Shown here one piece after another: positions 4,208-58,884 of a stretch of DNA of 63,083 nucleotides. The notes under the pieces are model-generated. The model searched no databases and was not told where the DNA came from. It saw only the letters and a list, made by a program, of their open reading frames with translations. Source of the DNA: a virus (Duplodnaviria; Caudoviricetes); IMG/VR virus record IMGVR_UViG_3300024302_000009, positions 1 to 63,083 of that record, one strand, 5' to 3'. The translations under genes were made by a program, and so were the position numbers. Positions within the stretch are counted from its first letter, which is position 1. The number at the start of each line of letters is the position of its first letter.

Positions 4208-5191
4208 ATGGCAAATGCCACAAAGACAGTTAAGAAAGCCAAAGCAGCGAAAGCCGCCAAAGCAGCCACCGAGCCAAAGCAATCAGCAGCCGATAAGGCA
4301 CTAGCTTTGACAGAGCGCAAAGCAGCGCAAGAGTTCAAGGCAATCCTGCTGACTTCCACAAGTGAAAAGAATCAGATGGAAAGTGACGTTGACGTTATTT
4401 CCCGTCGTGTGCAGGACTTCATTAAGAAGCATAAAGCAGCCAATAAAGACGCTGTTTATGTTGCACCTGATCGTCAGACCTTGCGCAAGTTCGTTTATGC
4501 TTCTGCTGACTACAACCGCAAGGTTTTGGAAATTGCACCTTTCGAAACTCGCACTTCTGCTGGTGTCAAAGCTGCATTGTTGGCCGTCAAAGCACCTACG
4601 GTTGAGAGTAGTTTCTCAATCAATGATAGTGACGCGACAATTTCCGCCAAAATCAAAGTCGATAGCAAAGGACGTTGCACCTTGCCTCAATCCTTCATTA
4701 GCCCCGTCGTTTATGATGATGAAATTGTTGACGGCAAGGCAACCGGGAAAAAGATTGCTCGCCAGAACACCAACAAAACGCAAATGGTTTTATCTGAAAA
4801 GATGATCAGCAGCTTGTTCGCAAACCATGTTGAGGCAACCGCCAGCAGGGCAGCCAAAGCCGGACAAGGTGCAACAACCGGACAAGTGACTAAGGAACAA
4901 TTGTCCAAAGCCGGAACATTGGACCTGATCAAAGCGTTATCCACTCGCATTAATGCAGCAGTCAAAAAGGGCAATGATGCAGTACTGGATTTTGAAGTTG
5001 ATGTTGTTGATGCCCTGACAAGGCTAGAAGATAATATTGGAATGTTTCAAGAGAAACACGCCAAAGCATCCAATGAGCTGGCTTCTGAATTGGCTAAAGA
5101 TGATCAGGCAATCCTTGATGCAGAAGCAGCCGAGATTGATGATGCAGCAGACTTTATCCAAGGCGTCGCCAAAGCTGCAAAGGCTAGCTAA
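4208..5191 (+). CDS. First early gene, 327-aa Ala/Lys-rich hypothetical protein with acidic C-terminus
   Basis: Long ORF with its own promoter, RBS (AGGA) and terminator. Confidence 0.85.
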   Translation: MANATKTVKKAKAAKAAKAATEPKQSAADKALALTERKAAQEFKAILLTSTSEKNQMESDVDVISRRVQDFIKKHKAANKDAVYVAPDRQTLRKFVYASADYNRKVLEIAPFETRTSAGVKAALLAVKAPTVESSFSINDSDATISAKIKVDSKGRCTLPQSFISPVVYDDEIVDGKATGKKIARQNTNKTQMVLSEKMISSLFANHVEATASRAAKAGQGATTGQVTKEQLSKAGTLDLIKALSTRINAAVKKGNDAVLDFEVDVVDALTRLEDNIGMFQEKHAKASNELASELAKDDQAILDAEAAEIDDAADFIQGVAKAAKAS

Positions 5192-9557: not shown

Positions 9558-9797
9558 ATGAAGTACGAAGTAGGTGATCTGGTACTTATCCCTAAGGATG
9601 TAACAGAGGAGTATGAATACCATGCTTTCACAGAGGGTGATCCGTATGAGGTAACGGAAATCTATACGGCTAACAATGGCATTATGTACCTGTATGTGAA
9701 TGATGATAGTGGAGACAACTGGGAGCTTGGCTTCGACGAGGTTAACCCCTACGAAAAGACTGCCCGACAGAAGATCGAAGCTATGCTACTCGCTTGA
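9558..9797 (+). CDS. KIExML-tail family member 3 (SH3/KOW-like, acidic)
   Basis: YEVGDLV start motif, ends TARQKIEAMLLA. The stop codon lies inside TTGACA. Confidence 0.85.
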   Translation: MKYEVGDLVLIPKDVTEEYEYHAFTEGDPYEVTEIYTANNGIMYLYVNDDSGDNWELGFDEVNPYEKTARQKIEAMLLA

Positions 9798-9822
9798 CAT
9801 AAGAAGCTGGTTAGTGTATAAT
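9794..9822 (+). promoter_or_regulatory. Class I promoter TTGACATAAG...TATAAT, driving the tRNA-like array
   Basis: Perfect hexamers, 17-bp spacer, 26 nt upstream of the first tRNA-like element. Confidence 0.9.
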
Positions 9823-9848
9823 ACTTGAACAATAAGGAAAGACATTAT

Positions 9849-9926
9849 GTTCCGTTCGTCTAGATGGTCTAGGACGCTGGTAGCTTGCTACTTGAAACGC
9901 TGGTTCAAATCCAGCACGGAACCCCA
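9849..9926 (+). tRNA. tRNA-Glu-like RNA 1 with non-canonical anticodon arm
   Basis: Acceptor GTTCCGT/ACGGAAC, D arm GTCT..AGGAC, T arm GCTGG-TTCAAAT-CCAGC, encoded CCA. The anticodon region folds as GTAG-CTTG-CTAC with no 7-nt loop. Confidence 0.85.
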
Positions 9927-9928
9927 AT

Positions 9929-10043
9929 ATAGCCACTCGTCTAAGGGTAAAGACACTGGGTGGAGGGTGTACGCTTCTATAGGGCCACTGCACGCTTGTA
10001 TAACACACAGAGATATCTGGTTCAACTCCAGAAGGTTATTCCA
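9929..10043 (+). tRNA. tRNA-like RNA 2 with ~55-nt extended anticodon arm
   Basis: Acceptor ATAGCC/GGTTAT (weaker), D arm GTCT..AGAC, T arm TCTGG-TTCAACT-CCAGA, CCA end. Confidence 0.7.
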
Positions 10044-10048
10044 ATTAT

Positions 10049-10127
10049 GTTTCCATCGTCTAGTTGGTTAGGACGCTCATCTGTAAAACGGAGAGAAACA
10101 CTGGTTCAAGTCCAGTTGGAAACCCCA
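10049..10127 (+). tRNA. tRNA-Glu-like RNA 3 with distorted anticodon arm
   Basis: Acceptor GTTTCCA/TGGAAAC, T arm ACTGG-TTCAAGT-CCAGT, CCA. The arm CTCATCTGTAAAACGGAGAG is not a 5-bp stem plus 7-nt loop. Confidence 0.85.
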
Positions 10128-10129
10128 AT

Positions 10130-10223
10130 GTTCCTGTCGTCTAGATGGTCTAGGACGCTGATGAGATTGCCTCAATGTTGGTCCTTATCAGAAACACTGG
10201 TTCAAATCCAGTCAGGAACCCCA
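10130..10223 (+). tRNA. tRNA-Glu-like RNA 4 with elongated anticodon arm
   Basis: Acceptor GTTCCTG/CAGGAAC, T arm ACTGG-TTCAAAT-CCAGT, CCA. An 8-bp CTGATGAG/CTTATCAG stem encloses 18 nt. Confidence 0.85.
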
Positions 10224-10247
10224 ATTATGCTAGCAAAGGAGTAGCTC

Positions 10248-10454
10248 ATGTCATCTGGTAAACAACAACAATACAAATGGAATGTTCCAGCAAAAAGGAT
10301 TTACGTCACAGAGGCACGTGCTATAGGCAAGCAGTACCAGCCATGGGACAAGCTGCCGGACATGGATAAGGATTATTATAGGGCCTGTGCACAGCGCAAC
10401 GCCCAATACAAGATTGCGCAATCAGCGCATGAGGTTGTTGGTAACCTCAAGTAA
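10248..10454 (+). CDS. Hypothetical protein
   Basis: 68 aa with AAGGAG RBS, immediately after the tRNA-like array. Confidence 0.7.
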   Translation: MSSGKQQQYKWNVPAKRIYVTEARAIGKQYQPWDKLPDMDKDYYRACAQRNAQYKIAQSAHEVVGNLK

Positions 10455-10486
10455 GCCAACTTAACGCTCAACATAGGGAGTACTCC

Positions 10487-10771
10487 ATGAGCAATAACTT
10501 TATCAACGTGAGTAAGGGTAGTAAGAGTAATCATGTCCAGCGTAAGGATGTGAAGTTTGGCGAACTGTTTCGCGCCAAAGGCAAAGAGATGGATGGTGCT
10601 ACATACGCCCATATGGGTGTGCGTACTGACCCTCCTACCTCCGGCCCTGAGGCATGGCAGTCGATCAACATCGACTCTGGTGAGGCAGCGTCTTCCCCTA
10701 ATGGGGATAAGGGCGTAGTCATCGTGGGTGGTTTCACTATTGAAGCTGCTATCCACGAAGACTTCTCTTGA
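10487..10771 (+). CDS. Hypothetical protein
   Basis: 94 aa, GGGAG RBS, followed by a terminator. Confidence 0.75.
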   Translation: MSNNFINVSKGSKSNHVQRKDVKFGELFRAKGKEMDGATYAHMGVRTDPPTSGPEAWQSINIDSGEAASSPNGDKGVVIVGGFTIEAAIHEDFS

Positions 10772-10787: not shown

Positions 10788-10815
10788 GGAGGGTGAAAGT
10801 CCCTCCACTTTCTTT
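10788..10815 (+). terminator. Rho-independent terminator
   Basis: GGAGGG-TGAAAGT-CCCTCC followed by ACTTTCTTT. Confidence 0.75.
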
Positions 10816-10972: not shown

Positions 10973-12634
10973 ATGCGCGGATACTTTACCAACTCAACTG
11001 GGGCCAAGACTAAGGTCCAACTGCGTGAGCTGATTACTGGTTGGTCAGAGGATGCAGACACAGGCGAAAAGGAGTTTGCTGAGCATTACGATAAGTTCTA
11101 CAGTGATGAGGGTATCCTTACTGCTGCTCGGTTGATGCGCCACTTTAGTGAGAGGGCAGTCAGGTTAACTGGTGCTATTGCTAATCACTGTGGTTATGCA
11201 GAGAAACACACCTACCTTGAGTGGGGTGAAGGTGTCCCAATGATGCCGTTGTCCTACGTCGTGGTCAACAAGGGTGTTGTTTCGGTCAGAGTACATGAGG
11301 AGATTAAAATCCCTGTGCCTAGTGCCAATAACACTCTCCGCAACGTGTGGTGGTGCTCTGGTACAGATAACCTGAATATCATGGCTACCATCATTGAGGC
11401 TGACAAAGGTAACCCCCGCAACAAGAAGTGGGAGACACCTGCTCGCGCTATCGCTAACATGAAGCGAACCAAAGATTACACTATGGCTAAGTTCATGAAC
11501 AAGTTTACCCTAGTGGGTAATATGTATACTGCATCACAAATGCGTGATGTAGCAGACAACATCGCGGAGGAGTTCCTTCCTGTAGAGGTCAAGGAAGCTC
11601 TAACGCTACAAGACTGGATTGATATGTACGAGCTGAGTAAGCAGTCTTGTATGGTGTCACGTAGTGAGCACGCTGGTCAGTGGAGTGGTGACTTCCTCAG
11701 TCAAGTACAGAAGGGCGTACCTGTTGAAAAGGTGATGCACCCTGTCGTGTGGTACTTCTACAATCCTGATGTACGGGGCTTTTATGTACGAAAGAGAGAT
11801 AGTGTCACCACACGTTGTATTGTCATCAACGATGATGTATTCAACTACAAGATGTACTCCTCCGGTGAGGTAGATGGTCGTGCCCTGCGTGCATACTTTC
11901 AAGAGCAGGGGTGGGAGCAGATGGAAGAAGATGACATGGTTGAATGCGGTACTGCATCCTTCACTATACCAGCATATAAAAAGGATAACGGAGAAAAGGT
12001 CTGTCCTTTCCCCTACGTTGACTCCATTAATATGTACTGGAATGTGGAATACCTTGAAGATACTGATGAGTACAGGTGGTCCCAAGCAATGGAAGACACA
12101 CGCCCTGTACCTAAGGTACGCAGCCAAACCTATGCAGGGTTCATAACCCACAATCATATCACTGGTGCACAGTGTGTGCGTTGTGGCGGGGATTGTGGTA
12201 GGTACGCTGTGCTAACTAACGATAACTCCAACTACTGCTGTGATGAGTGTGCAGAGAATGACGGGTATGGTCGTGCAAAACGGTCAGACCACTCAACTAT
12301 CTGGATAGCTCGGGAAATGGCTTTCCTTGATGATGTTCATGGTGATATGTTCACCAACAGAGAAGCCTGTATCTCTTGTGGCGGTTTACCTCACTACAAG
12401 GGGCACACCTATGAGACGGAAGAAGAATACCCGTTGACTGTTCACGGTTACCAGAACATCACTCACGGTGACATGGCAATGACAATCACGCGGAGCACCT
12501 ATAGGTTCCTAACAGAAAAAGGCCAAATAAAAGAAGGTGTACTCACTCTCGGCAAGGCAATCGCCCCTCCCAACATCAATGTAACACGGGGCATGAACAG
12601 ATTTAATCGTGCAACAAGTCAATTTGAAAAGTAA
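10973..12634 (+). CDS. Large hypothetical protein with SCM and FPYVD motifs and a C-terminal Cys-rich (Zn-binding) region
   Basis: 553 aa, AAGGAG RBS, with CVRC, CCDEC and CISC clusters. Confidence 0.8.
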   Translation: MRGYFTNSTGAKTKVQLRELITGWSEDADTGEKEFAEHYDKFYSDEGILTAARLMRHFSERAVRLTGAIANHCGYAEKHTYLEWGEGVPMMPLSYVVVNKGVVSVRVHEEIKIPVPSANNTLRNVWWCSGTDNLNIMATIIEADKGNPRNKKWETPARAIANMKRTKDYTMAKFMNKFTLVGNMYTASQMRDVADNIAEEFLPVEVKEALTLQDWIDMYELSKQSCMVSRSEHAGQWSGDFLSQVQKGVPVEKVMHPVVWYFYNPDVRGFYVRKRDSVTTRCIVINDDVFNYKMYSSGEVDGRALRAYFQEQGWEQMEEDDMVECGTASFTIPAYKKDNGEKVCPFPYVDSINMYWNVEYLEDTDEYRWSQAMEDTRPVPKVRSQTYAGFITHNHITGAQCVRCGGDCGRYAVLTNDNSNYCCDECAENDGYGRAKRSDHSTIWIAREMAFLDDVHGDMFTNREACISCGGLPHYKGHTYETEEEYPLTVHGYQNITHGDMAMTITRSTYRFLTEKGQIKEGVLTLGKAIAPPNINVTRGMNRFNRATSQFEK

Positions 12635-12643
12635 GGTGGAATA

Positions 12644-14287
12644 ATGTCAAAAGGACCAATCAATAAGAAAGTGGTGACTAATCTTCCTGTCAAGGTTGAT
12701 CCCCACAAACGAGTTAAGAAGGGGGACATTGATCCTGTACTTCATGCTCTCCTTCGTCTGGCTACACCTATGGGGTCAGAGAAGGTCATTGTGGGTATCA
12801 TCAATGCTGTCTGTGCTAAACTATCTATTGAGACTACTCTCGATGAGAAGGGTAATCTACGTGCGGTTGTGGGAGAGGGGTCCAAGACTATCTTTAGTTC
12901 CCATATGGACACTGTGCATGACGCTTTTGGTGCATTACGTCTGTATCAATACACGGGGGACAAGAAGAAGGGGATCATCTTTGCTAAGCAGAACAACAAG
13001 AAATGTGTGCTTGGTGCTGATGACAAGGTGGGTGTGTGGCTTATGCTCAAGCTTATGGAGGCTGGTACACCGGGGCTGTACATCTTCCATATGGGGGAGG
13101 AGCAAGGTCGCGTAGGCTCTAAGTATATCGCTGCCTCTACACCTGAGATATTGGAAGGGTACGAGCGTGCTATTGCGTTTGATAGGGCAGGATACTTGGA
13201 CATTGTGGACACACAAATATCCGGTGAATGTTGCTCTGATACGTTTGTAGAGGCTCTGTCAACTCAACTAGACGCTGGTCTGGATGACAAGTACCCTGAT
13301 AGGGCTACTACCTCAGGCTTTACTGGGGCTACAGGTTCCTATACGGACACCGCCTCTTACATGAAACTCATCCCTGAATGTACCAATATCTCTGTGGGCT
13401 ATGACAACCAGCACACATCTGAGGAGATATTCGATTGGCCGTGGCTCAACGAGACGCTGCTGCCTATCCTGCTCAAAGTTAAGTGGGAAGACCTTCCAAC
13501 GGTCAGAGATCACACGGCAGTTCCTGTCTACACTAATAGCTACCGGAGTGGTGGTTATGGGAATTATGGTGGCTACAGCGGCTATGGCATGGGCGCAGAC
13601 CCTTGGTATGAGGATGATGACTTCTGGAAGGGCAATAGCCAGAACGACACTATCCGCAATGTGTCTTTGTATGAGAAGGATATCCCACGTACATATGACT
13701 CCACGGCTACATGGGTACTAGGGGAGGATTTACCCACTAACATCTACATGGCTACACGTATCATTGAGAAATGGACGTATAAGAAGGGAGATATCCTTGT
13801 TGATGAGGTCAAGACAGCTAACAAGACCATTGAAGAACTCAAGGACTTGGTGAACACTGCATACTATCTGTTCTCTAACATTGAGAGCTTGAAGATACTT
13901 GAGGATGGGGATGACAGGGCTAAGATGGTTCAAGGGGATATTGACGACTGGTATCAGGATATGTACACTACTGGTGTGTATGCAGGAGAGCTTGTGGATG
14001 ATGATAGCGAGGAACCTGCGGAGGAAAAAGATGAGCCGGGGCGTCCACCGGGACCAGCAGACAACATGACCTTTGATAGTAACCTGTTTAAGCTGACACA
14101 AGCGAATGAGGAGGCTACAGGAGGATACAATGAGATCACCATTGTTAACAGTGCTGGTGTCAAATACTCTCACTCTGCCTTGAAAGAAAAACGCAAGGGG
14201 GACACTCTGTACTACAACATGAGTGGTTATCGTCTGCCTTATATGTTCTACACCATCAAAGGTGATGAGAATTTCCTGAAAGGTTAG
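12644..14287 (+). CDS. M28/M20-clan Zn metallopeptidase with long acidic C-terminal extension
   Basis: SHMDTVH, LGADDK, GEEQG, FDR, YTD and NISVGYDNQHT motifs. Confidence 0.85.
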   Translation: MSKGPINKKVVTNLPVKVDPHKRVKKGDIDPVLHALLRLATPMGSEKVIVGIINAVCAKLSIETTLDEKGNLRAVVGEGSKTIFSSHMDTVHDAFGALRLYQYTGDKKKGIIFAKQNNKKCVLGADDKVGVWLMLKLMEAGTPGLYIFHMGEEQGRVGSKYIAASTPEILEGYERAIAFDRAGYLDIVDTQISGECCSDTFVEALSTQLDAGLDDKYPDRATTSGFTGATGSYTDTASYMKLIPECTNISVGYDNQHTSEEIFDWPWLNETLLPILLKVKWEDLPTVRDHTAVPVYTNSYRSGGYGNYGGYSGYGMGADPWYEDDDFWKGNSQNDTIRNVSLYEKDIPRTYDSTATWVLGEDLPTNIYMATRIIEKWTYKKGDILVDEVKTANKTIEELKDLVNTAYYLFSNIESLKILEDGDDRAKMVQGDIDDWYQDMYTTGVYAGELVDDDSEEPAEEKDEPGRPPGPADNMTFDSNLFKLTQANEEATGGYNEITIVNSAGVKYSHSALKEKRKGDTLYYNMSGYRLPYMFYTIKGDENFLKG

Positions 14288-14291
14288 TGAT

Positions 14292-14585
14292 ATGGAAAGA
14301 GATGTTAGACTAGGTGATAAGGTTAGGTGCTGGACAGATACCTCCTCAGTGCGAATAGGTACTGTGTGTCGCTTAACTGTCGCTGGCTGCGACCTTAAGG
14401 CTCAGGGCTATGACTTCATCATGAGTGGTGTGGAGAATAACAGAGGGCACCCCCTAAACCACGATGAAAGAGATATTTATGATTTGCCCTACGGGGATGA
14501 CTACTGGTATGGGGCGTTTAAAGACTGTGATGCACCAATTAAACTGACAGCTAGACAAAAGATTGAAAGGATGTTACATGCTTAA
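14292..14585 (+). CDS. KIExML-tail family member 4
   Basis: RLGDKV start motif, ends TARQKIERMLHA. The tail overlaps the GluRS start codon. Confidence 0.85.
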   Translation: MERDVRLGDKVRCWTDTSSVRIGTVCRLTVAGCDLKAQGYDFIMSGVENNRGHPLNHDERDIYDLPYGDDYWYGAFKDCDAPIKLTARQKIERMLHA

Positions 14586-15387
14586 CACACGTATTGCTCC
14601 ATCACCTACAGGTGACATGCACCTTGGAACAGCACGCACTGCATACTTTAACTGGCTTGCTGCACGGGCCACCGGAGGTAAATTCATTCTACGGATTGAT
14701 GATACCGACTTGGAACGCAGCAAGCCAGAACACACTGAAGTAATCCTTGAGACAATGGAATGGCTCGGGCTGGACTATGATGAAATCCATTACCAGAGTA
14801 AGCGTCAAGATAGGTACGAAGATATTGTGCGTATGTTTAAACATAGTGATAAAGGGTTTATTGATGATGGGTGTTTGCGACTGACTGCGCCCTTTGAGGA
14901 GGACAATCATCTAGTGATGATGAAATCAGACGGCTCCCCTACATATCACTTTGCCTCTGTGCTGGATGATATTGACATGGATACTAACTACATCATTCGT
15001 GGCAATGATCATGAACTCAACCTTCCTAAACACCAGCACATCCATAACCAAATTGTAGGTAATCTAGGGCCAGCGTTCCCTGACGTACAGCATGTAAGCC
15101 TTATCACCAAGGGCGGCAAGAAGATGTCCAAGCGTGATGATGCTGCATCTATGCTGTGGTATCGTGACCAAGGGTATAGTCCTGAGGCTGTGCTAAACTT
15201 CATGTTACGGTTGGGATGGTCACCAGATCAGGATGACAAGTCCAACGCTATCATCACAAGAGACAAGGCTGTAGAGATGTTCTTCGATGGGGGACACTTT
15301 ATCAAGGCTAAGCTGTCCGGCTATGACCAGAACAAGCTGGATTGGTTCAACAAGAAGTACAAGGCTATGGAGAGGATGGCGGCATGA
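14578..15387 (+). CDS. Truncated glutamyl-tRNA synthetase (catalytic and stem-contact domains only, no anticodon-binding domain)
   Basis: RIAPSPTG, HLGT (HIGH), LRIDDTD, YQSKR, PTYHFASVLDD, IRGNDH, KMSKR and LGWS motifs. Ends at 269 aa just after KLDWFNKKY. Confidence 0.92.
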   Translation: MLNTRIAPSPTGDMHLGTARTAYFNWLAARATGGKFILRIDDTDLERSKPEHTEVILETMEWLGLDYDEIHYQSKRQDRYEDIVRMFKHSDKGFIDDGCLRLTAPFEEDNHLVMMKSDGSPTYHFASVLDDIDMDTNYIIRGNDHELNLPKHQHIHNQIVGNLGPAFPDVQHVSLITKGGKKMSKRDDAASMLWYRDQGYSPEAVLNFMLRLGWSPDQDDKSNAIITRDKAVEMFFDGGHFIKAKLSGYDQNKLDWFNKKYKAMERMAA

Positions 15388-27048: not shown

Positions 27049-27292
27049 TGATAAAATGGGCGTAGACATGGAGAATAATATTATCACCATGCAGACGGAT
27101 TGTAGCTACGTTGTGTTTAAAGAGAGTGAAGAGGGGCGGCTACGTACTTTTAGTTACACGGGCAAGGACTGCTCTGACATATTGTACGTACTGATTAATG
27201 GAATGTTAATGCATTTGGAAAACAACCAAGACTTTTTATTGGACTACGCAGGGGAGCATGATGAAGATTATAAGCCAGTGGTGGTACATTGA
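27041..27292 (+). CDS. Hypothetical protein
   Basis: 83 aa, coupled. Confidence 0.6.
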   Translation: MSDDKMGVDMENNIITMQTDCSYVVFKESEEGRLRTFSYTGKDCSDILYVLINGMLMHLENNQDFLLDYAGEHDEDYKPVVVH

Positions 27293-27795
27293 TGTTAGCA
27301 AACAAAACAGACAAAGACTCTGTTAAAGAGTATTTAGAAAATAGAGTTAATAAATATTCTCCAATATTTGATACTGATTGCTGTTGGTTTTGGTCCCGTG
27401 GCGTTAACACAAGTGGATATGGTCACATAGGACCTAATCGTATAAGTGCTCACTATGGAGTCACTACGGCGCATAAGCTATCTTACTTAGTGCATAATGG
27501 GGAAGTACCTGAAGGACAGTGTGTATTACATACGTGCGATAACAAAATATGCATAAACCCCAACCATTTGTTTTTAGGTACGCACCAAGACAACATGGAT
27601 GATATGGTGCGCAAAGGTAGATCAGACACTTCTTCAGGTGAAGACCACCCCATGTCAGTGCTGTCAACCCTAGATGTTTTACGTATAAGAGATTGCAAAG
27701 ACCACAATACTTCTGTAGAGCTATCCCGTATGTTTGATGTTAGCCCCAGAACAATAAGAGATATATGGAATAGACATACTTGGAAGGATGTATAA
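27292..27795 (+). CDS. HNH homing endonuclease with C-terminal HTH
   Basis: CWFW..GYG, AHKLSY and VLHTCDNKICINPNHLFLGTHQDN motifs. Confidence 0.9.
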   Translation: MLANKTDKDSVKEYLENRVNKYSPIFDTDCCWFWSRGVNTSGYGHIGPNRISAHYGVTTAHKLSYLVHNGEVPEGQCVLHTCDNKICINPNHLFLGTHQDNMDDMVRKGRSDTSSGEDHPMSVLSTLDVLRIRDCKDHNTSVELSRMFDVSPRTIRDIWNRHTWKDV

Positions 27796-32218: not shown

Positions 32219-32520
32219 TGTACCTAGCGCCGAGTGTTAAGATAGCCCATTATGACTTCCTTATACAGCAGATGGGCGCAGTTATGGAGTCTGCTGAAGT
32301 GCATGGTATGTGTGATAAGAGTGGTCAGGTTATCTACATAGACACTGGTGCCACTAATGCCATCCAGAAGGATACTCTACTGCATGAGATAATGCACGCT
32401 ATCTGGTGGACTGCATACTTGGAGGATGAAGATAAAGAGGAACGGGTTGTCAGCAGCTTATCTACAGGGCTGTTACAGGTGCTGCGAGACAACCCTTGGG
32501 TGGGAGAAGCTATAAGATGA
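32218..32520 (+). CDS. Small HExxH metallopeptidase-like phage protein
   Basis: TLLHEIMHA...EERVV. Confidence 0.75.
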   Translation: MYLAPSVKIAHYDFLIQQMGAVMESAEVHGMCDKSGQVIYIDTGATNAIQKDTLLHEIMHAIWWTAYLEDEDKEERVVSSLSTGLLQVLRDNPWVGEAIR

Positions 32521-32882
32521 AAGTTGATGTGATACCAGAGCCTGTCGATACAGAAAATGTATACTTAGCAGGAGTCATTGATGGGGAGGGTTGTTTTGTA
32601 AGCACTATTGATAAACGCACTGGGAAACCTAATTGCTGGTTAGCTGTTGAGATGACAGACCTAGATGTGATACAGAGATTACATAAACAATACGGAGGGC
32701 ATTATCATGAGAATACTGCGCCCTCCCGTAAGCCTCATTTTAAGCAGAGTTGGAGATGGCGGTTAAACAAACAAAAAGATTTATTTGATTGTATTATACA
32801 TATCGGCCCTTACCTTTGTGAGCGCAGATACAAGAAAGCTAGTGAACTATTTGAAATATTGGAGCCTAAGGTATGCAAGTAG
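32517..32882 (+). CDS. Free-standing single-motif LAGLIDADG endonuclease
   Basis: YLAGVIDGEGCF and PYLCERR motifs. Sits immediately upstream of thyX. Confidence 0.85.
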   Translation: MKVDVIPEPVDTENVYLAGVIDGEGCFVSTIDKRTGKPNCWLAVEMTDLDVIQRLHKQYGGHYHENTAPSRKPHFKQSWRWRLNKQKDLFDCIIHIGPYLCERRYKKASELFEILEPKVCK

Positions 32883-56136: not shown

Positions 56137-58884
56137 TTAATATCCAAACACAGGGTCTGCCATTTGTGGGGCATTCGCTGTGGAACTGAAGTATTCAGCT
56201 TCAACTATGTATCTTGCAGGTACTGCAAGTCGGCTAGTAACTCCGTAACGTAGAGCATCGTACAGGTGATCCTCTGGGAACTTGGTGTCTACATCTTCTG
56301 GGTTGTTCTTATCCAGAGGAAGCATTGGTAAGATACGAAGAAGATTATCACAAGCTGTGCTAATTCGTAATCTTGGTAACTCGGTTACTGGATCAATAGA
56401 GAACATCTTGTGGAGGGCCACTTTACCATTTACACGGCTGCCGGGACCCTTGTCAGCTTTAATCCACCTGACACCTAAATTGATCATCTCTTCAGCTATA
56501 GAAGGACCTCTCTGTCCTCTCATAGCCCATGTCTCATTATCCAAGATACCTAGTATGCCCGGAGGCTCTTCGGCTTCAATCTCATGGATTTTCTCTGCTA
56601 GAGCAACTCCATCCAGACCCTTCTGGTATAACTCTCTGTAAGCGTACACTGTACCATCGTAATCAACTGCAAACCAGATAACTGCGGCAGGAGCCGAATA
56701 ACCATAGTCACAAGCTCTAAACCTCGGCCAGTCCGCAGGAGGTACAAACTGTTCTACTGCGTGTATTGACTTATCGAACTCTGGAAAGGCACTGGAGTCT
56801 GATATGTCCCAGTCACCCTCTAAGAGCCTCTTACGCTGTACTGTGGACATAGACGCCAAGTTAGCCATGTACTCTGGAGACTGCATCAAGTAAGGGTTGT
56901 CAGTAAGCCTTGCAGGTATGAACCTGCGTCTGATAGCTTTCTTATTCCTTAGCTCTTCTGGTACAAACTCTGAGTCTGGGAACCTTAGTATCTCTCCCGT
57001 TTCAATGTCTCTGCCCCAGAAAGGCTCTCCCCAAGGAGCAGGATCAATGAACATCTTCTTAACCCACCATGCCCCAATCTGTCCGGGATTAGTGGTAGCA
57101 CGCATGTATGGTGTAATCTCTGGATCAGTAGTACGTAAACGAGAACGAAGTGTGTCCCATACGTAAGGTGTGGCAAACAGTGTTAACTCATCCACACCAA
57201 TCCAAGAGTACGATTGTCCAATGTAACGGCCTACGTCAGCATCTGCATCACAGAAACCAAACAGTAGAGTTGCACCTGATGGGAACTTCCATCTGTTTTC
57301 CCCTTTGTTATACTTAGCGCCGGGGAAGGCTTTAGGGTACAGCTCCATGGACAGATCAATCAGTTCCATAAGCTCAGGCATTGACTTACGAATAAGTAGC
57401 GCCCTGTGTGCTGGCCTGTGCATGTACCTCAGAGGGTCCATGAGCATCCCGTAGGAATTATGCGTTACTATATAATTGTCCGTTATATATAATCCATCTT
57501 CTGATGCTAGTGTGACACATTTAGCCTCTTCACGGTGACTATAACTTATAGAAACTATTCTGTTTTTTAAGTGTTTCTTTACTTTACACCTTGCCTTCTT
57601 CCTACTTAAATTAAATATGGAAGCAGCGTCTCTAAGCCGTATGTAAACAGTGTACGCTGTGTACCCTTCGTGAACTACGTTACCACATCTATAATGAGTA
57701 CTCTTCCACGTTATAGTAGCTGTTCCCCCTAAACCTCTAACTAGCTCTGCTACGTCTTCAGCCAGTGTAAAGCTTATTGAGGTGTAATACACCTTACTAT
57801 CTTTGGATGCGTAGCCATCTGTATCCATAAGCCCTTGTAATAAACATATTCTATCTTGTGTATTCGCTTTTTTATAGTTTTCAGGTATAAACTTTGTTAG
57901 AGAATTTGTACCTAGTAGCTTTAAATCCCGCAGAGCTTGTGTCTGTCCTAGCACACCCCACGCGTATTTACTTGATCTCTTAGTGACTACTACACCATCT
58001 TGGCGTATGCGATTTACAATCTCTTCATCAGCAGAGCTTAAACCTACAGAGTCTGTAGTTATACTGCCATCTCCGAGTAATGCACCTAATGTGTAAGGTG
58101 GCACTACAAGATTTGTAGACACTCCAAAATCAAACTGCTGTATTAAAGGAACTAACGCCCAGCGCGGTCGTTTTTTACTGTACTGCTTATCTGTATAATC
58201 TTGTAAACTTTTAGTGTCTCTAACCTTAGGTAATATAGAACTACTATTACCCGCAATAGTGTACTCCCACAAATGATCTCCTGTACATTCTACATTGGAG
58301 CCATCTTGAAATGTTACAAGATATATGTCTTGTGTTCCTTGTGGGTGTTCTTGTACAACCTTAGTGGTAGTTCCGTCTGGAGAATATACAATATCTCCTA
58401 CTCCCACCTCACCTATAGTTTTAAACCCTTCAGGAGTAAGTATTTTTGCGGATAATGGCTGTGCCTTGCCGCCACCAGCACTGCCTCCGTAGAGTATCTC
58501 TTTCTCAGGGGCAGCTAGGAAGTCTGTTTGAGGTCCCGGATTGGGTTGGAAGATGACTGTTCGGCCATCATCTAAAACATTCTGGAACGTCTGTCCTGCC
58601 GTGTCGATTGTGTCTTGGGTGATAACCTTTCCCTTTTTCTTAGGGGGATTGGTCATCACCCGGACAATCTCATTAGCAGCTTTAGCCTTGGCTTTTGCGG
58701 CTACCGCATTTTCCTCGGCCTTATCCTCTGCCTTTTGCTTACGTCTGGCTTTGGCTTCTTTTGCCCTGTGTGCCTTAGTGAGCTTAGCGTTTCTCTCTTT
58801 CTCAAGCTGCCTAGCTTTACGCTTGGCCTTTTCTGTTGAGGAGAGCTGATATCTACGCTTTGGCTTTGGAGTCTCGTCAGTCAT
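56137..58884 (-). CDS. terL: Terminase large subunit containing an intein
   Basis: PNPGPQ, YGGSAGGGK|S Walker A, IGVDEL Walker B, ATTNPG, DYGY and DHLYDALRY motifs. Confidence 0.93.
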   Translation of the reverse strand: MTDETPKPKRRYQLSSTEKAKRKARQLEKERNAKLTKAHRAKEAKARRKQKAEDKAEENAVAAKAKAKAANEIVRVMTNPPKKKGKVITQDTIDTAGQTFQNVLDDGRTVIFQPNPGPQTDFLAAPEKEILYGGSAGGGKAQPLSAKILTPEGFKTIGEVGVGDIVYSPDGTTTKVVQEHPQGTQDIYLVTFQDGSNVECTGDHLWEYTIAGNSSSILPKVRDTKSLQDYTDKQYSKKRPRWALVPLIQQFDFGVSTNLVVPPYTLGALLGDGSITTDSVGLSSADEEIVNRIRQDGVVVTKRSSKYAWGVLGQTQALRDLKLLGTNSLTKFIPENYKKANTQDRICLLQGLMDTDGYASKDSKVYYTSISFTLAEDVAELVRGLGGTATITWKSTHYRCGNVVHEGYTAYTVYIRLRDAASIFNLSRKKARCKVKKHLKNRIVSISYSHREEAKCVTLASEDGLYITDNYIVTHNSYGMLMDPLRYMHRPAHRALLIRKSMPELMELIDLSMELYPKAFPGAKYNKGENRWKFPSGATLLFGFCDADADVGRYIGQSYSWIGVDELTLFATPYVWDTLRSRLRTTDPEITPYMRATTNPGQIGAWWVKKMFIDPAPWGEPFWGRDIETGEILRFPDSEFVPEELRNKKAIRRRFIPARLTDNPYLMQSPEYMANLASMSTVQRKRLLEGDWDISDSSAFPEFDKSIHAVEQFVPPADWPRFRACDYGYSAPAAVIWFAVDYDGTVYAYRELYQKGLDGVALAEKIHEIEAEEPPGILGILDNETWAMRGQRGPSIAEEMINLGVRWIKADKGPGSRVNGKVALHKMFSIDPVTELPRLRISTACDNLLRILPMLPLDKNNPEDVDTKFPEDHLYDALRYGVTSRLAVPARYIVEAEYFSSTANAPQMADPVFGY
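57457..58464 (-). mobile_element. Class 3 intein with LAGLIDADG homing endonuclease (336 aa) in the TerL Walker A
   Basis: Starts AQPL and ends VTHN before Ser+1. TGDHLW (block B), KCVT (block F), LGALLGDGS and LQGLMDTDG. Confidence 0.9.

What the first reader, a model, noticed from the sequence alone, without database searches (positions are those of the whole stretch)
9849..10223. Array of four tRNA-like RNAs with a conserved elbow but hypervariable anticodon arms
The acceptor stems differ in sequence yet pair perfectly (GTTCCGT/ACGGAAC, GTTTCCA/TGGAAAC, GTTCCTG/CAGGAAC), so compensatory change indicates selection rather than decay. D arms, T arms and CCA are retained, while the anticodon-arm segments are about 18, 55, 20 and 34 nt and each still forms a stem. 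Three copies have the unusual discriminator C73. Spacers are only 2-5 nt, behind a perfect sigma70 promoter. They could be cargo-bearing tRNA scaffolds (the variable arm as guide or aptamer), or decoys immune to anticodon nucleases such as PrrC.
Basis: partly seen in the sequence, partly recalled or inferred. Interest (0 to 1): 0.88.

Follow-up and report, generated by a model that had tools for sequence, protein, structure and literature searches.

The report
Anticodon-less tRNA-Glu mimics beside mini-GluRS
A marine phage carries four tRNA-shaped RNAs that look like glutamate tRNA but have lost the anticodon loop, together with a glutamyl-tRNA synthetase that has lost its anticodon-reading domain, which suggests an RNA and enzyme pair working outside normal translation.

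Summary
Four tandem tRNA-like genes lie at 9849-10223 (+), behind a 12-of-12 sigma-70 promoter. All four fold as cloverleaves. Units 1, 3 and 4 keep perfect acceptor, D and T stems with compensatory changes, but closed hairpins replace the 7-nt anticodon loop, so they cannot decode. Unit 2 is divergent and weaker.

New here: the units are tRNA-Glu in type. They keep U13.G22, U11-A24, a 4-nt variable loop, G1-C72 and U2-A71. The same phage encodes a 269-aa GluRS catalytic core with no anticodon-binding domain (14578-15387).

- Homologous mini-GluRS genes in other phages sit directly beside tRNA-Glu arrays.
- Two of the three related phage contigs found (L137, L178) carry a mini-GluRS plus one anticodon-less Glu-like unit and no other tRNA. 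The third (L136) has only the enzyme.
- 0 of 8 cultured relatives have a mini-GluRS or such a unit.

Against a strict link: similar Glu-like units occur in many phages without a mini-GluRS (25 of 27 records; 0 of 5 in an earlier set).

Best reading (about 0.4): non-decoding glutamate-acceptor RNAs, or cofactors, of the phage's anticodon-blind GluRS. The main rival is decoys for host factors that bind tRNA-Glu. Nothing is shown experimentally; one 230-nt contig from an RNA library is only a weak hint of transcription.

The parts
9794..9822 (+). sigma-70-type promoter (TTGACA, 17 nt, TATAAT)
   Evidence: 12 of 12 consensus matches. It would leave a leader of about 20 nt before unit 1 (inferred).
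9849..9926 (+). unit 1: Glu-type tRNA-like RNA. The 18-nt anticodon arm is a 5-6 bp stem with a CUUG tetraloop. C73 and CCA are encoded.
   Evidence: Cloverleaf MFE, z -2.28. Model R1 scores 69.3 bits. ARAGORN forces 'Thr-GGT'.
9929..10043 (+). unit 2: divergent tRNA-like unit with an anticodon-arm region of about 60 nt. The acceptor stem pairs 6 of 7, U13-A22 replaces U13.G22, and it has T73 and CCA.
   Evidence: Cloverleaf MFE but z -0.02. Not found by ARAGORN, by Rfam tRNA or by R1 at E<=1. It is the weakest member.
10049..10127 (+). unit 3: Glu-type tRNA-like RNA. The 20-nt arm is a 7-8 bp stem with one bulge and a 3-5 nt loop. C73 and CCA are encoded.
   Evidence: Rfam tRNA 45.4 bits with an oversized 'loop'. 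R1 68.9 bits. MFE cloverleaf.
10130..10223 (+). unit 4: Glu-type tRNA-like RNA. The 34-nt arm is an 8-bp stem with an 18-nt loop. C73 and CCA are encoded.
   Evidence: MFE cloverleaf, z -3.44, 0 of 200 shuffles as stable. R1 70.0 bits. ARAGORN 'tRNA-???'.
10248..10771 (+). two small ORFs (10248-10454, 68 aa; 10487-10771, 94 aa) directly downstream, probably co-transcribed with the units
   Evidence: ORF list. No Pfam or PHROG family.
10788..10806 (+). terminator-like hairpin that would end the promoter-units-ORFs transcription unit
   Evidence: This is a consensus match only.
14578..15387 (+). mini-GluRS: 269-aa GluRS catalytic core with HIGH and KMSKS motifs and no anticodon-binding domain
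   Evidence: Pfam PF00749 E 1.5e-58. NCBIfam gltX_bact 253 bits against GluQRS 141 bits. It aligns to residues about 27-337 of a 490-aa GluRS. AF2 pLDDT 87.6; TM 0.81-0.88 to bacterial GluRS and 0.68-0.73 to YadB.
10973..14287 (+). context genes shared by the related contigs: a 553-aa protein of unknown function (10973-12634) and a 547-aa protein with an N-terminal Zn-peptidase-like half (12644-14287)
   Evidence: Homologs in L136, L137 and L178. PHROG 4191 'peptidase'. Weak M20-type NCBIfam hits. The peptidase half is common in unrelated phages. No link to the units is shown.

Best explanation
The array encodes non-decoding RNAs derived from tRNA-Glu. They are made from a strong early promoter as one precursor. 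They probably mature like tRNAs: RNase P at the 5' ends, and the CCA is already encoded.

Units 1, 3 and 4 keep the L-shape and every feature outside the anticodon by which GluRS is known to recognise tRNA-Glu. Closed hairpins replace the anticodon loop, so the units cannot read codons. The same phage encodes a GluRS reduced to its catalytic and stem-contact core, without the domain that reads the anticodon.

I propose that the two form a pair. The anticodon-blind enzyme binds these RNAs and glutamylates their CCA ends, or uses them as the RNA cofactor that GluRS needs to activate glutamate. This would yield a pool of Glu-RNA uncoupled from translation. What that pool is used for (glutamyl donor, sink, or bait) is unknown.

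Shown: the RNA anatomy, the selection on the stems, the enzyme's domain content, and the co-occurrence of enzyme and units.

Inferred: processing, binding, charging, the amino acid attached, and any downstream use.
For: 1. The units are Glu in type. Units 1, 3 and 4 have G1-C72, U2-A71, U11-A24, U13.G22 and a 4-nt variable loop. These are the non-anticodon identity elements of E. coli tRNA-Glu, for which N73 is not required (review PMC9976931, passage read). In an alignment with 17 Glu-type tRNA(-like) genes from mini-GluRS phages, U13.G22 is invariant (20 of 20), 97.6% of 418 cells pair, and 20 of 21 pairs change on both sides.

2. The window encodes a GluRS core without an anticodon-binding domain. 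The truncation point is shared by all 13 aligned homologs, and the family is large.

3. Mini-GluRS genes go with Glu tRNAs. Canonical tRNA-Glu lies within the fetched 10 kb flanks in 8 of 35 mini-GluRS loci. In 5 of them (L120, L121, L122, L124, L141) tRNA-Glu is the nearest tRNA gene, 4-511 nt away.

4. The same lineage repeats the pairing. L136, L137 and L178 share the 553-aa, 547-aa and primase-like proteins, the helicase and, in two of the three, the DNA polymerase with the window.
- The complete 68-kb record behind L137 has a mini-GluRS and exactly one tRNA-like hit, a 94-nt anticodon-less Glu-like unit.
- The record behind L178 has exactly one, 548 nt upstream of its mini-GluRS.
- L147 and L152, which are not related to the window, also have anticodon-less units near a mini-GluRS.

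5. 0 of 8 cultured relatives by portal protein have a mini-GluRS. None has an anticodon-less Glu-type unit among its model hits, though one ARAGORN 'tRNA-???' call in Aeromonas phage 1233 was not examined.

6. Controls. Non-canonical Glu-type units: 0 in 23 full-length gltX loci (337 kb), 0 in 22 portal loci (182 kb), and 3 in 35 mini-GluRS loci (696 kb).
Against: 1. Glu-like units with odd or missing anticodon loops are common in phages without a mini-GluRS.
- 0 of 5 records have a mini-GluRS in the first set; one of those five units is a canonical tRNA-Glu.
- In the second set 3 of 27 records match. Two are the window's relatives and one is a full-length 491-aa gltX. Only 1 of the 15 records that are at least 90% complete matches.

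2. L136's record (62 kb, complete) has a mini-GluRS but no tRNA-like gene at all. The enzyme therefore does not need a phage-encoded RNA.

3. In the window the units and the enzyme are 4.3 kb apart and in separate predicted transcription units.

4. The D-helix features are structurally interdependent. They could be kept for folding alone.

5. The window's enzyme lacks about 50-70 residues of the inserted acceptor-binding domain relative to full GluRS, so its activity is uncertain.

6. No partner enzyme that would use Glu-RNA was identified.

7. Transcription, processing and charging are all untested. One 230-nt contig in an RNA library spans 9773-10002, but it starts upstream of the promoter and may be DNA carry-over.
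Confidence: 0.4

Rival explanations
1. Decoys or sponges. The abundant tRNA-Glu-shaped RNAs would soak up a host factor that recognises the tRNA body or acceptor end. Candidates are a defence nuclease that cuts anticodon arms, a toxin that modifies CCA ends, a HipA-type kinase acting on the GluRS-tRNA complex, or glutamyl-tRNA reductase. No charging by the phage enzyme is needed.
For: - Four copies sit behind a consensus promoter.
- The arms differ in every copy while the body is kept.
- C73 is unusual and recurs in non-canonical Glu-like units of unrelated contigs.
- Similar units are widespread in phages without a mini-GluRS.
- Defence nucleases that cut the anticodon arm of many tRNAs are documented (passages read in PMC13056530 and PMC12445682).
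Against: - A decoy without an anticodon loop cannot bait nucleases that read that loop, and it cannot restore decoding.
- No target is identified.
- This reading does not explain why, within this lineage, the units occur only with a mini-GluRS.
- No paper describing such decoys was found in searches.
Confidence: 0.25
2. tRNA scaffolds carrying functional hairpins. The variable arms, above all the 18-nt loop of unit 4 and the roughly 60-nt insert of unit 2, would be the active parts (guide, aptamer or protein-binding site). The tRNA body would serve only for processing and stability.
For: - Each arm forms a stem, and two arms carry sizeable extra sequence.
- The design matches the engineered tRNA scaffold for expressing RNA in E. 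coli (PMC3753655, start of abstract in search listing only).
Against: - No arm has a match or complement longer than 12 nt elsewhere in the window.
- Units 1 and 3 carry only minimal capped hairpins with no room for cargo.
- The arms of the related units in L137 and L178 have about the same size (32-36 nt) but share no obvious sequence by eye.
- No Rfam family matches the inserts.
Confidence: 0.08
3. Cis-acting processing or stability elements. The tRNA-like folds at the 5' end of the transcript would recruit RNase P, or block nucleases, to shape the mRNA of the two small ORFs downstream.
For: The units lie between the promoter and two small ORFs, with a terminator-like hairpin after them.
Against: - In L137 and L178 the unit lies in front of different genes.
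- Four copies, an encoded CCA and a conserved Glu-type body are more than a cleavage signal needs.
Confidence: 0.07
4. Decaying tRNA-Glu genes, relics of an array like those beside the mini-GluRS in large phages, with no present function.
For: - Canonical tRNA-Glu arrays exist next to homologous mini-GluRS genes.
- Unit 2 shows a mismatch, an extra base and no fold-energy signal.
Against: - Units 1, 3 and 4 have 100% paired acceptor, D and T stems, with 4 pairs changed on both sides.
- The loops are replaced by stable caps rather than scrambled.
- The anticodon-less state is shared with distant relatives.
- A real decayed copy shows what decay looks like: in a Shewanella tRNA-Glu array one copy has a loop insertion together with acceptor-stem and T-stem mismatches.
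Confidence: 0.07
5. Real tRNAs whose canonical anticodon loop is restored after transcription by splicing or editing.
For: None was found.
Against: - No Rfam intron or ribozyme family matches.
- The arms of units 1 and 3 are only 1 and 3 nt longer than a normal arm and hold no Glu anticodon.
- No contig in the four runs laid shows a joined form, though these were contigs, which drop rare variants.
Confidence: 0.03

Closest known systems
Canonical phage-encoded tRNAs, including those with anticodon-loop changes that evade host nucleases (PMC10264068; start of abstract in search listing only)
   Same: Phage-encoded and clustered, with a tRNA fold. Change is concentrated in the anticodon arm.
   Different: Those tRNAs keep a 7-nt loop and an anticodon, and they rescue decoding. 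These units have no anticodon loop at all.
E. coli tRNA-Glu and its GluRS identity set (PMC9976931, passage read)
   Same: G1-C72, U2-A71, U11-A24, U13.G22 with A46, and no residue 47 are all present in units 1, 3 and 4.
   Different: The strong determinants U34, U35, C36 and A37 are absent. The discriminator is C, not the G that I recall for E. coli tRNA-Glu.
C-truncated GluRS and YadB/GluQRS (Dubois et al. 2009, title seen in reference lists only; YadB passages in PMC3927822)
   Same: A GluRS catalytic core without the anticodon-binding domain. By the paper's title, a C-truncated E. coli GluRS stays specific for tRNA-Glu.
   Different: The phage enzyme is closer to GltX than to GluQRS (253 against 141 bits; TM 0.81-0.88 against 0.68-0.73). 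It also lacks part of the inserted acceptor-binding domain.
tRNA-like domain of tmRNA
   Same: A chargeable tRNA mimic without an anticodon. The acceptor and T arms are kept, and a helix replaces the anticodon arm (the tmRNA details are recalled).
   Different: These units have no mRNA-like part and no G3.U70, and they keep a full D stem. ARAGORN reports no tmRNA.
Phage T4 stable RNAs 'species 1 and 2' (rnaC, rnaD) in the T4 tRNA cluster (recalled; no paper or sequence seen)
   Same: Small phage RNAs of unknown function, encoded among or like tRNAs and processed like them.
   Different: No link to an aminoacyl-tRNA synthetase is known to me.
Bacterial Y RNA YrlA (PMC4201824) and B. cereus pseudo-tRNA 'tRNA-Other' (PMC3399842); start of abstracts in search listing only
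   Same: Non-decoding RNAs that mimic or derive from tRNA.
   Different: YrlA is circularly permuted relative to tRNA (recalled), and no Rfam family matches here. tRNA-Other is a single chromosomal gene.

Membership tests
canonical decoding tRNA | 7-bp acceptor stem, D arm, and T arm with a T-loop | tested here: met
   Units 1, 3 and 4: all acceptor, D and T pairs form. The T loops read TTCAAAT or TTCAAGT and the D loops hold GG. Unit 2: acceptor 6 of 7.
canonical decoding tRNA | 5-bp anticodon stem with a 7-nt loop holding U33 and an anticodon | tested here: not met
   0 of 4 units pass. The arms are closed hairpins of 18, about 60, 20 and 34 nt. ARAGORN's anticodons are forced or undetermined.
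canonical decoding tRNA | passes the Rfam RF00005 gathering score | tested here: inconclusive
   1 of 4 passes (unit 3, 45.4 bits, with an oversized loop). Unit 1 scores 18.1 bits, and units 2 and 4 give no hit.
tRNA-Glu (GluRS identity set) | augmented D helix: U11-A24, U13.G22 with A46, and no residue 47 | tested here: met
   Units 1, 3 and 4. U13.G22 is invariant in 20 of 20 aligned Glu-type sequences. Unit 2 has U13-A22.
tRNA-Glu (GluRS identity set) | G1-C72 and U2-A71 | tested here: met
   Units 1, 3 and 4.
tRNA-Glu (GluRS identity set) | [quoted passage not shown] | tested here: not met
   No anticodon loop exists in any unit.
tRNA-Glu (GluRS identity set) | is charged with glutamate | not testable with these tools
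   Needs an aminoacylation assay or an acid-gel northern blot.
GluRS (GltX), for the 269-aa protein | class I catalytic core with HIGH and KMSKS motifs | tested here: met
   PF00749 E 1.5e-58. Both motifs are read in the translation. TM 0.81-0.88 to bacterial GluRS structures.
GluRS (GltX), for the 269-aa protein | C-terminal anticodon-binding domain, and the NCBIfam equivalog cut-off | tested here: not met
   The alignment ends near residue 337 of a 490-aa GluRS. It scores 253 bits against a cut-off of 290. All 13 aligned homologs stop at the same point.
GluQRS (YadB), for the 269-aa protein | equivalog score, and closest fold | tested here: not met
   141 bits against a cut-off of 250. TM 0.68-0.73, lower than to GluRS.
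tmRNA | tRNA-Ala-like acceptor stem (G3.U70) and a tag reading frame | tested here: not met
   U3-A70 in units 1, 3 and 4. ARAGORN finds no tmRNA.
intron-bearing tRNA | a recognisable intron whose removal leaves a canonical loop | tested here: not met
   No Rfam intron or ribozyme family matches. The arms of units 1 and 3 are only 1 and 3 nt over normal length and hold no Glu anticodon.

The most novel reading that the evidence does not exclude
A small marine phage carries a natural aminoacylation pair that is orthogonal to translation. An anticodon-blind mini-GluRS charges anticodon-less tRNA-Glu mimics. The resulting Glu-RNA is used off the ribosome, for instance as an activated glutamyl donor for a modification or biosynthetic step, or to feed or block a host pathway that depends on Glu-tRNA.
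Probability: 0.25. Interest if true: 0.9.

Novelty: new variant of a known kind. Interest (0 to 1): 0.74.

Why it matters
If the pairing is real, it is a natural counterpart of engineered orthogonal synthetase and tRNA pairs, and a living example of the supposed ancestral GluRS made of the catalytic domain alone (passage in PMC3927822). It would also show a phage using aminoacyl-RNA chemistry outside decoding.

It would give a first testable handle on a wider set of phage tRNA-like genes with replaced anticodon arms. Standard tRNA finders call these 'undetermined' or miss them: in the fetched loci ARAGORN missed the units of L137, L147, L152 and L178.

If the decoy reading is right instead, these would be RNA sponges against tRNA-directed immunity. 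My searches found no description of such sponges.

I found no paper describing anticodon-less tRNA-Glu-like arrays or a phage C-truncated GluRS in searches. Supplementary files could not be opened and may hold relevant lists.

Tried and rejected
- blastn (distant mode) of the array against 50,697 phage records: no match.
- Exact-pattern scans of IMG/VR for close copies of the units: none besides the window's own record, which such scans may leave out.
- Looser patterns found only unrelated Glu-like units and many archaeal intron-bearing tRNAs.
- The 553-aa neighbour as a search anchor: no IMG/VR or phage match. The ESM Atlas gave only unnamed viral clusters and sub-threshold GNAT-like structural rows, so I name no family.
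- Portal-based loci were too short to reach the array.
- Complementarity of the variable arms within the window: nothing longer than 12 nt.
- Neighbour-gene clustering across 14 mini-GluRS loci plus the window: no protein other than the mini-GluRS is shared with the window.
- Sequencing runs: the DNA runs are identical to the window, so there is no population-level covariation to use. Parts of the stretch without cover in the RNA runs mean nothing.
- ORFs overlapping the array (9847-10071 and 9960-10244): no PHROG family. I treat them as chance frames.
- L170, whose mini-GluRS N-terminus is the closest found (83% over 40 aa), is not syntenic with the window. It carries two tRNA(UUA) genes instead.
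Full report
**What the window is.** It is an IMG/VR virus record of 63,083 bases, estimated 80% complete, with 45.6% G+C. Its portal protein is 44-50% identical to those of Pelagibacter, Roseobacter and Puniceispirillum podophages of the HMO-2011 type, and 38-40% identical to those of Vibrio, Aeromonas and Pseudoalteromonas phages. It encodes DNA polymerase A, a DnaB-like helicase, ribonucleotide reductase, ThyX, a portal protein and a terminase. Near-identical DNA is held by several seawater metagenome runs.

**The observation.** Four tRNA-like units lie head to tail at 9849-9926, 9929-10043, 10049-10127 and 10130-10223 on the + strand. The spacers are 2, 5 and 2 nt.
- A 12-of-12 sigma-70 consensus promoter sits at 9794-9822. 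Two small ORFs and a terminator-like hairpin at 10788-10806 follow the units.
- All four units fold as cloverleaves at minimum free energy. The z-scores are -2.28, -0.02, -1.98 and -3.44.
- ARAGORN reports three of them, with forced or undetermined anticodons. Rfam's tRNA model passes its threshold only for unit 3.
- Across units 1, 3 and 4, 98.1% of 54 pair cells are standard pairs. Three acceptor pairs and one T-stem pair change on both sides, and slid controls pair at only 27.5-50.9%.
- The anticodon arms are closed hairpins. Unit 1 has 5-6 bp capped by CUUG. Unit 3 has 7-8 bp with a 3-5 nt loop. Unit 4 has 8 bp with an 18-nt loop. None has a 5-bp stem with a 7-nt loop.
- Unit 2 is divergent. 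Its acceptor pairs 6 of 7, it has an extra base before the D stem and an insert of about 60 nt, its fold is no more stable than shuffles, and my covariance model does not find it.

**What kind of tRNA they derive from.** Units 1, 3 and 4 have G1-C72, U2-A71, U11-A24, U13.G22 and a 4-nt variable loop ending in AAAC. A review of tRNA identity lists exactly these as the determinants of E. coli tRNA-Glu outside the anticodon, with position 73 not required. U34, U35, C36 and A37 are the strong determinants in the loop (PMC9976931, passage read). The units are therefore tRNA-Glu bodies without the tRNA-Glu anticodon.

**The enzyme.** The ORF at 14578-15387 (269 aa) is a class I Glu/Gln synthetase catalytic domain (Pfam PF00749, E 1.5e-58).
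- It scores 253 bits on the bacterial gltX model, below the 290-bit cut-off, and 141 bits on GluQRS.
- It aligns to residues about 27-117 and 188-337 of a 490-aa GluRS. It therefore lacks the whole C-terminal anticodon-binding domain. That domain is residues 323-468 in T. thermophilus numbering (PMC3927822, passage). It also lacks some 50-70 residues of the inserted acceptor-binding domain.
- The HIGH and KMSKS motifs are present.
- An AlphaFold2 model built on 13 homologs is confident (pLDDT 87.6, pTM 0.88). It superposes on bacterial GluRS structures at TM 0.81-0.88 over the query, and on YadB at 0.68-0.73.
- Thirteen aligned homologs all end at the same point. The protein database holds a large family: the best 120 hits are 269-365 aa and, apart from the window's own copy, 47-64% identical.

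**Do the enzyme and Glu-type tRNAs go together?** I fetched 60 IMG/VR loci encoding relatives. By ORF length, 35 are 'mini' (256-325 aa, with some duplicates), one more (L170) is cut by the contig end, and 23 are full length.
- In 8 of the 35 mini loci a canonical tRNA-Glu lies within the 10-kb flanks.
- In L120, L121, L122, L124 and L141 it is the nearest tRNA gene, 4-511 nt from the enzyme, often as an array of 3-4 tRNA-Glu (UUC and CUC).
- These tRNAs share the U13.G22 and 4-nt variable-loop design of the window's units.

**True relatives of the window's phage.** L136, L137 and L178 share the 553-aa protein, the Zn-peptidase-like 547-aa protein, the primase-like 276-aa protein and the helicase with the window. 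L136 and L137 also share the DNA polymerase. Amino-acid identities are 22-51%. All three have a mini-GluRS. With covariance model R1, built from 20 Glu-type sequences:
- The complete 68-kb record behind L137 has exactly one tRNA-like hit. It is a 94-nt Glu-like unit with a 36-nt closed arm, about 8.4 kb upstream of its mini-GluRS.
- The 17-kb record behind L178 has exactly one, an 88-nt unit with an 8-bp stem and a 14-nt loop, 548 nt upstream of its mini-GluRS.
- The complete 62-kb record behind L136 has none.
- Eight cultured relatives by portal protein have no mini-GluRS (0 of 8). None has an anticodon-less Glu-like unit among its R1 hits. Five have no hit, Aeromonas phage 1233 has an ordinary tRNA array, Slicky01 has one tRNA-Arg, and CHOED has one marginal partial hit. 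One ARAGORN 'tRNA-???' call in the Aeromonas array was not examined.

The anticodon-less state is thus old and maintained. In this lineage it occurs only in genomes with the mini-GluRS. These are few genomes, and they are related to one another.

**Results against a strict dependence.** Pattern scans for Glu-type D and T arms with non-canonical spacing found such units in many other phage contigs. Some have stems capped by tetraloops. Others have 18-nt arms with a 6-nt loop that still holds CUC.
- 0 of 5 of their records carry a mini-GluRS in the first set, where one of the five units is a canonical tRNA-Glu.
- In the second set 3 of 27 records match. Two are L137's and L178's records and one is a full-length 491-aa gltX. 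Only 1 of the 15 records that are at least 90% complete matches.
- Together with L136, this shows that neither partner needs the other in general.

My patterns required a Glu-type D arm, so they say nothing about other tRNA types. Non-canonical units of other types were also seen near mini-GluRS genes, for example L125, L127, L129 and L152.

**Decay control.** In a Shewanella jiangmenensis tRNA operon downstream of a full-length gltX, one tRNA-Glu copy has an insertion of about 15 nt in its loop, together with a mismatch in the acceptor stem and one in the T stem. That is what a decaying copy looks like. Units 1, 3 and 4 show the opposite pattern.

**Expression.** One 230-nt contig from a seawater metatranscriptome run covers 9773-10002, which spans unit 1 and most of unit 2. 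It begins upstream of the -35 box, and DNA carry-over cannot be excluded. The DNA runs are identical to the window. Transcription is therefore not shown.

**Interpretation.** The evidence supports a set of non-decoding, selected RNAs derived from tRNA-Glu.
- I rank first, at about 0.4, that they are acceptors or cofactors of the phage's anticodon-blind GluRS.
- Second, at about 0.25, that they are decoys for a host factor that binds tRNA-Glu or tRNAs in general. The wide occurrence of such units without a mini-GluRS favours this reading.
- Cargo scaffolds, cis-processing elements, relics and spliced tRNAs rank lower.

No enzyme that would consume Glu-RNA was found among the neighbours.

**Literature.** Five full-text searches returned no description of such an array or of a phage C-truncated GluRS.
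- A large survey of viral structured RNAs mentions tRNA-like candidates only in general terms (PMC10690425, passages).
- Papers on Schlafen and OLD nucleases show that defences cut anticodon arms, and that rescue tRNAs must keep the anticodon (PMC13056530 and PMC12445682, passages).
- A preprint on tRNA-derived messengers did not bear on this (PMC13692257, abstract and outline).
- Dubois et al. 2009 on a C-truncated GluRS was seen only as a reference-list title.
- My statements about T4 species 1 and 2 RNAs, tmRNA anatomy, the permuted order of YrlA, HipA acting on GltX, and GluRS needing tRNA to activate glutamate are recalled, not checked here.

Noticed in passing
window 56137-58884 (-): The 915-aa terminase large subunit ORF also matches DNA primase, DnaC-like loader and helicase PHROGs over residues about 98-394. 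This could be an inserted element such as an intein, or a fusion.
   Followed up: no
window 27289-27795 (+) and 32496-32882 (+): An HNH endonuclease and a weak LAGLIDADG-like ORF lie among the nucleotide-metabolism genes (RNR, ThyX). They are probably homing endonucleases.
   Followed up: no
L170:3878-3953 and 4375-4448: A 5-kb IMG/VR contig has two tRNA genes with anticodon UUA (ARAGORN 'tRNA-Stop') 0.5-1 kb upstream of a mini-GluRS. Its first 40 residues are 83% identical to the window's. An anticodon-blind synthetase beside suppressor-like tRNAs would be worth a look.
   Followed up: partly
L228, L229, L210 (units printed): Two complete 64-66 kb phage genomes and one 35-kb fragment (55% complete), all without a mini-GluRS, carry a single Glu-type tRNA gene. 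Its anticodon arm is 18 nt, reading as 6 bp with a 6-nt loop, or 5 bp with an 8-nt loop, and the loop holds CUC. Whether it decodes is unclear.
   Followed up: partly
window units 1, 3, 4; L024, L027, L037, L068, L147, L211/L233, L223: Discriminator C73 recurs among non-canonical Glu-like units from unrelated contigs, whereas the canonical phage tRNA-Glu genes next to mini-GluRS have A or G. It may act as an anti-determinant against host synthetases. No statistics were done.
   Followed up: partly
L303:3107-3196 (Shewanella jiangmenensis contig): In a tandem tRNA-Glu array downstream of full-length gltX, one copy has an insertion of about 15 nt in the anticodon loop plus acceptor-stem and T-stem mismatches. 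It looks like a decaying tRNA gene and served as a contrast.
   Followed up: yes
L120-L123, downstream of the mini-GluRS: One or two tRNA-Arg (UCU or CCU) genes follow the mini-GluRS in these related large-phage contigs. ORFs that look like RelA/SpoT HD-domain hydrolases lie a few kb upstream in L119-L123; that was judged by eye from one printed sequence and was not tested.
   Followed up: no
L125:9482-9583, L127:8217-8318, L129:9530-9611, L152:13506-13574: tRNA-like genes that are not of the Glu D-arm type also have replaced anticodon arms: a 53-nt arm, a UUCG-capped hairpin and a GCAA-capped 5-bp stem. They lie within 0.4-2.6 kb of mini-GluRS genes.
   Followed up: partly
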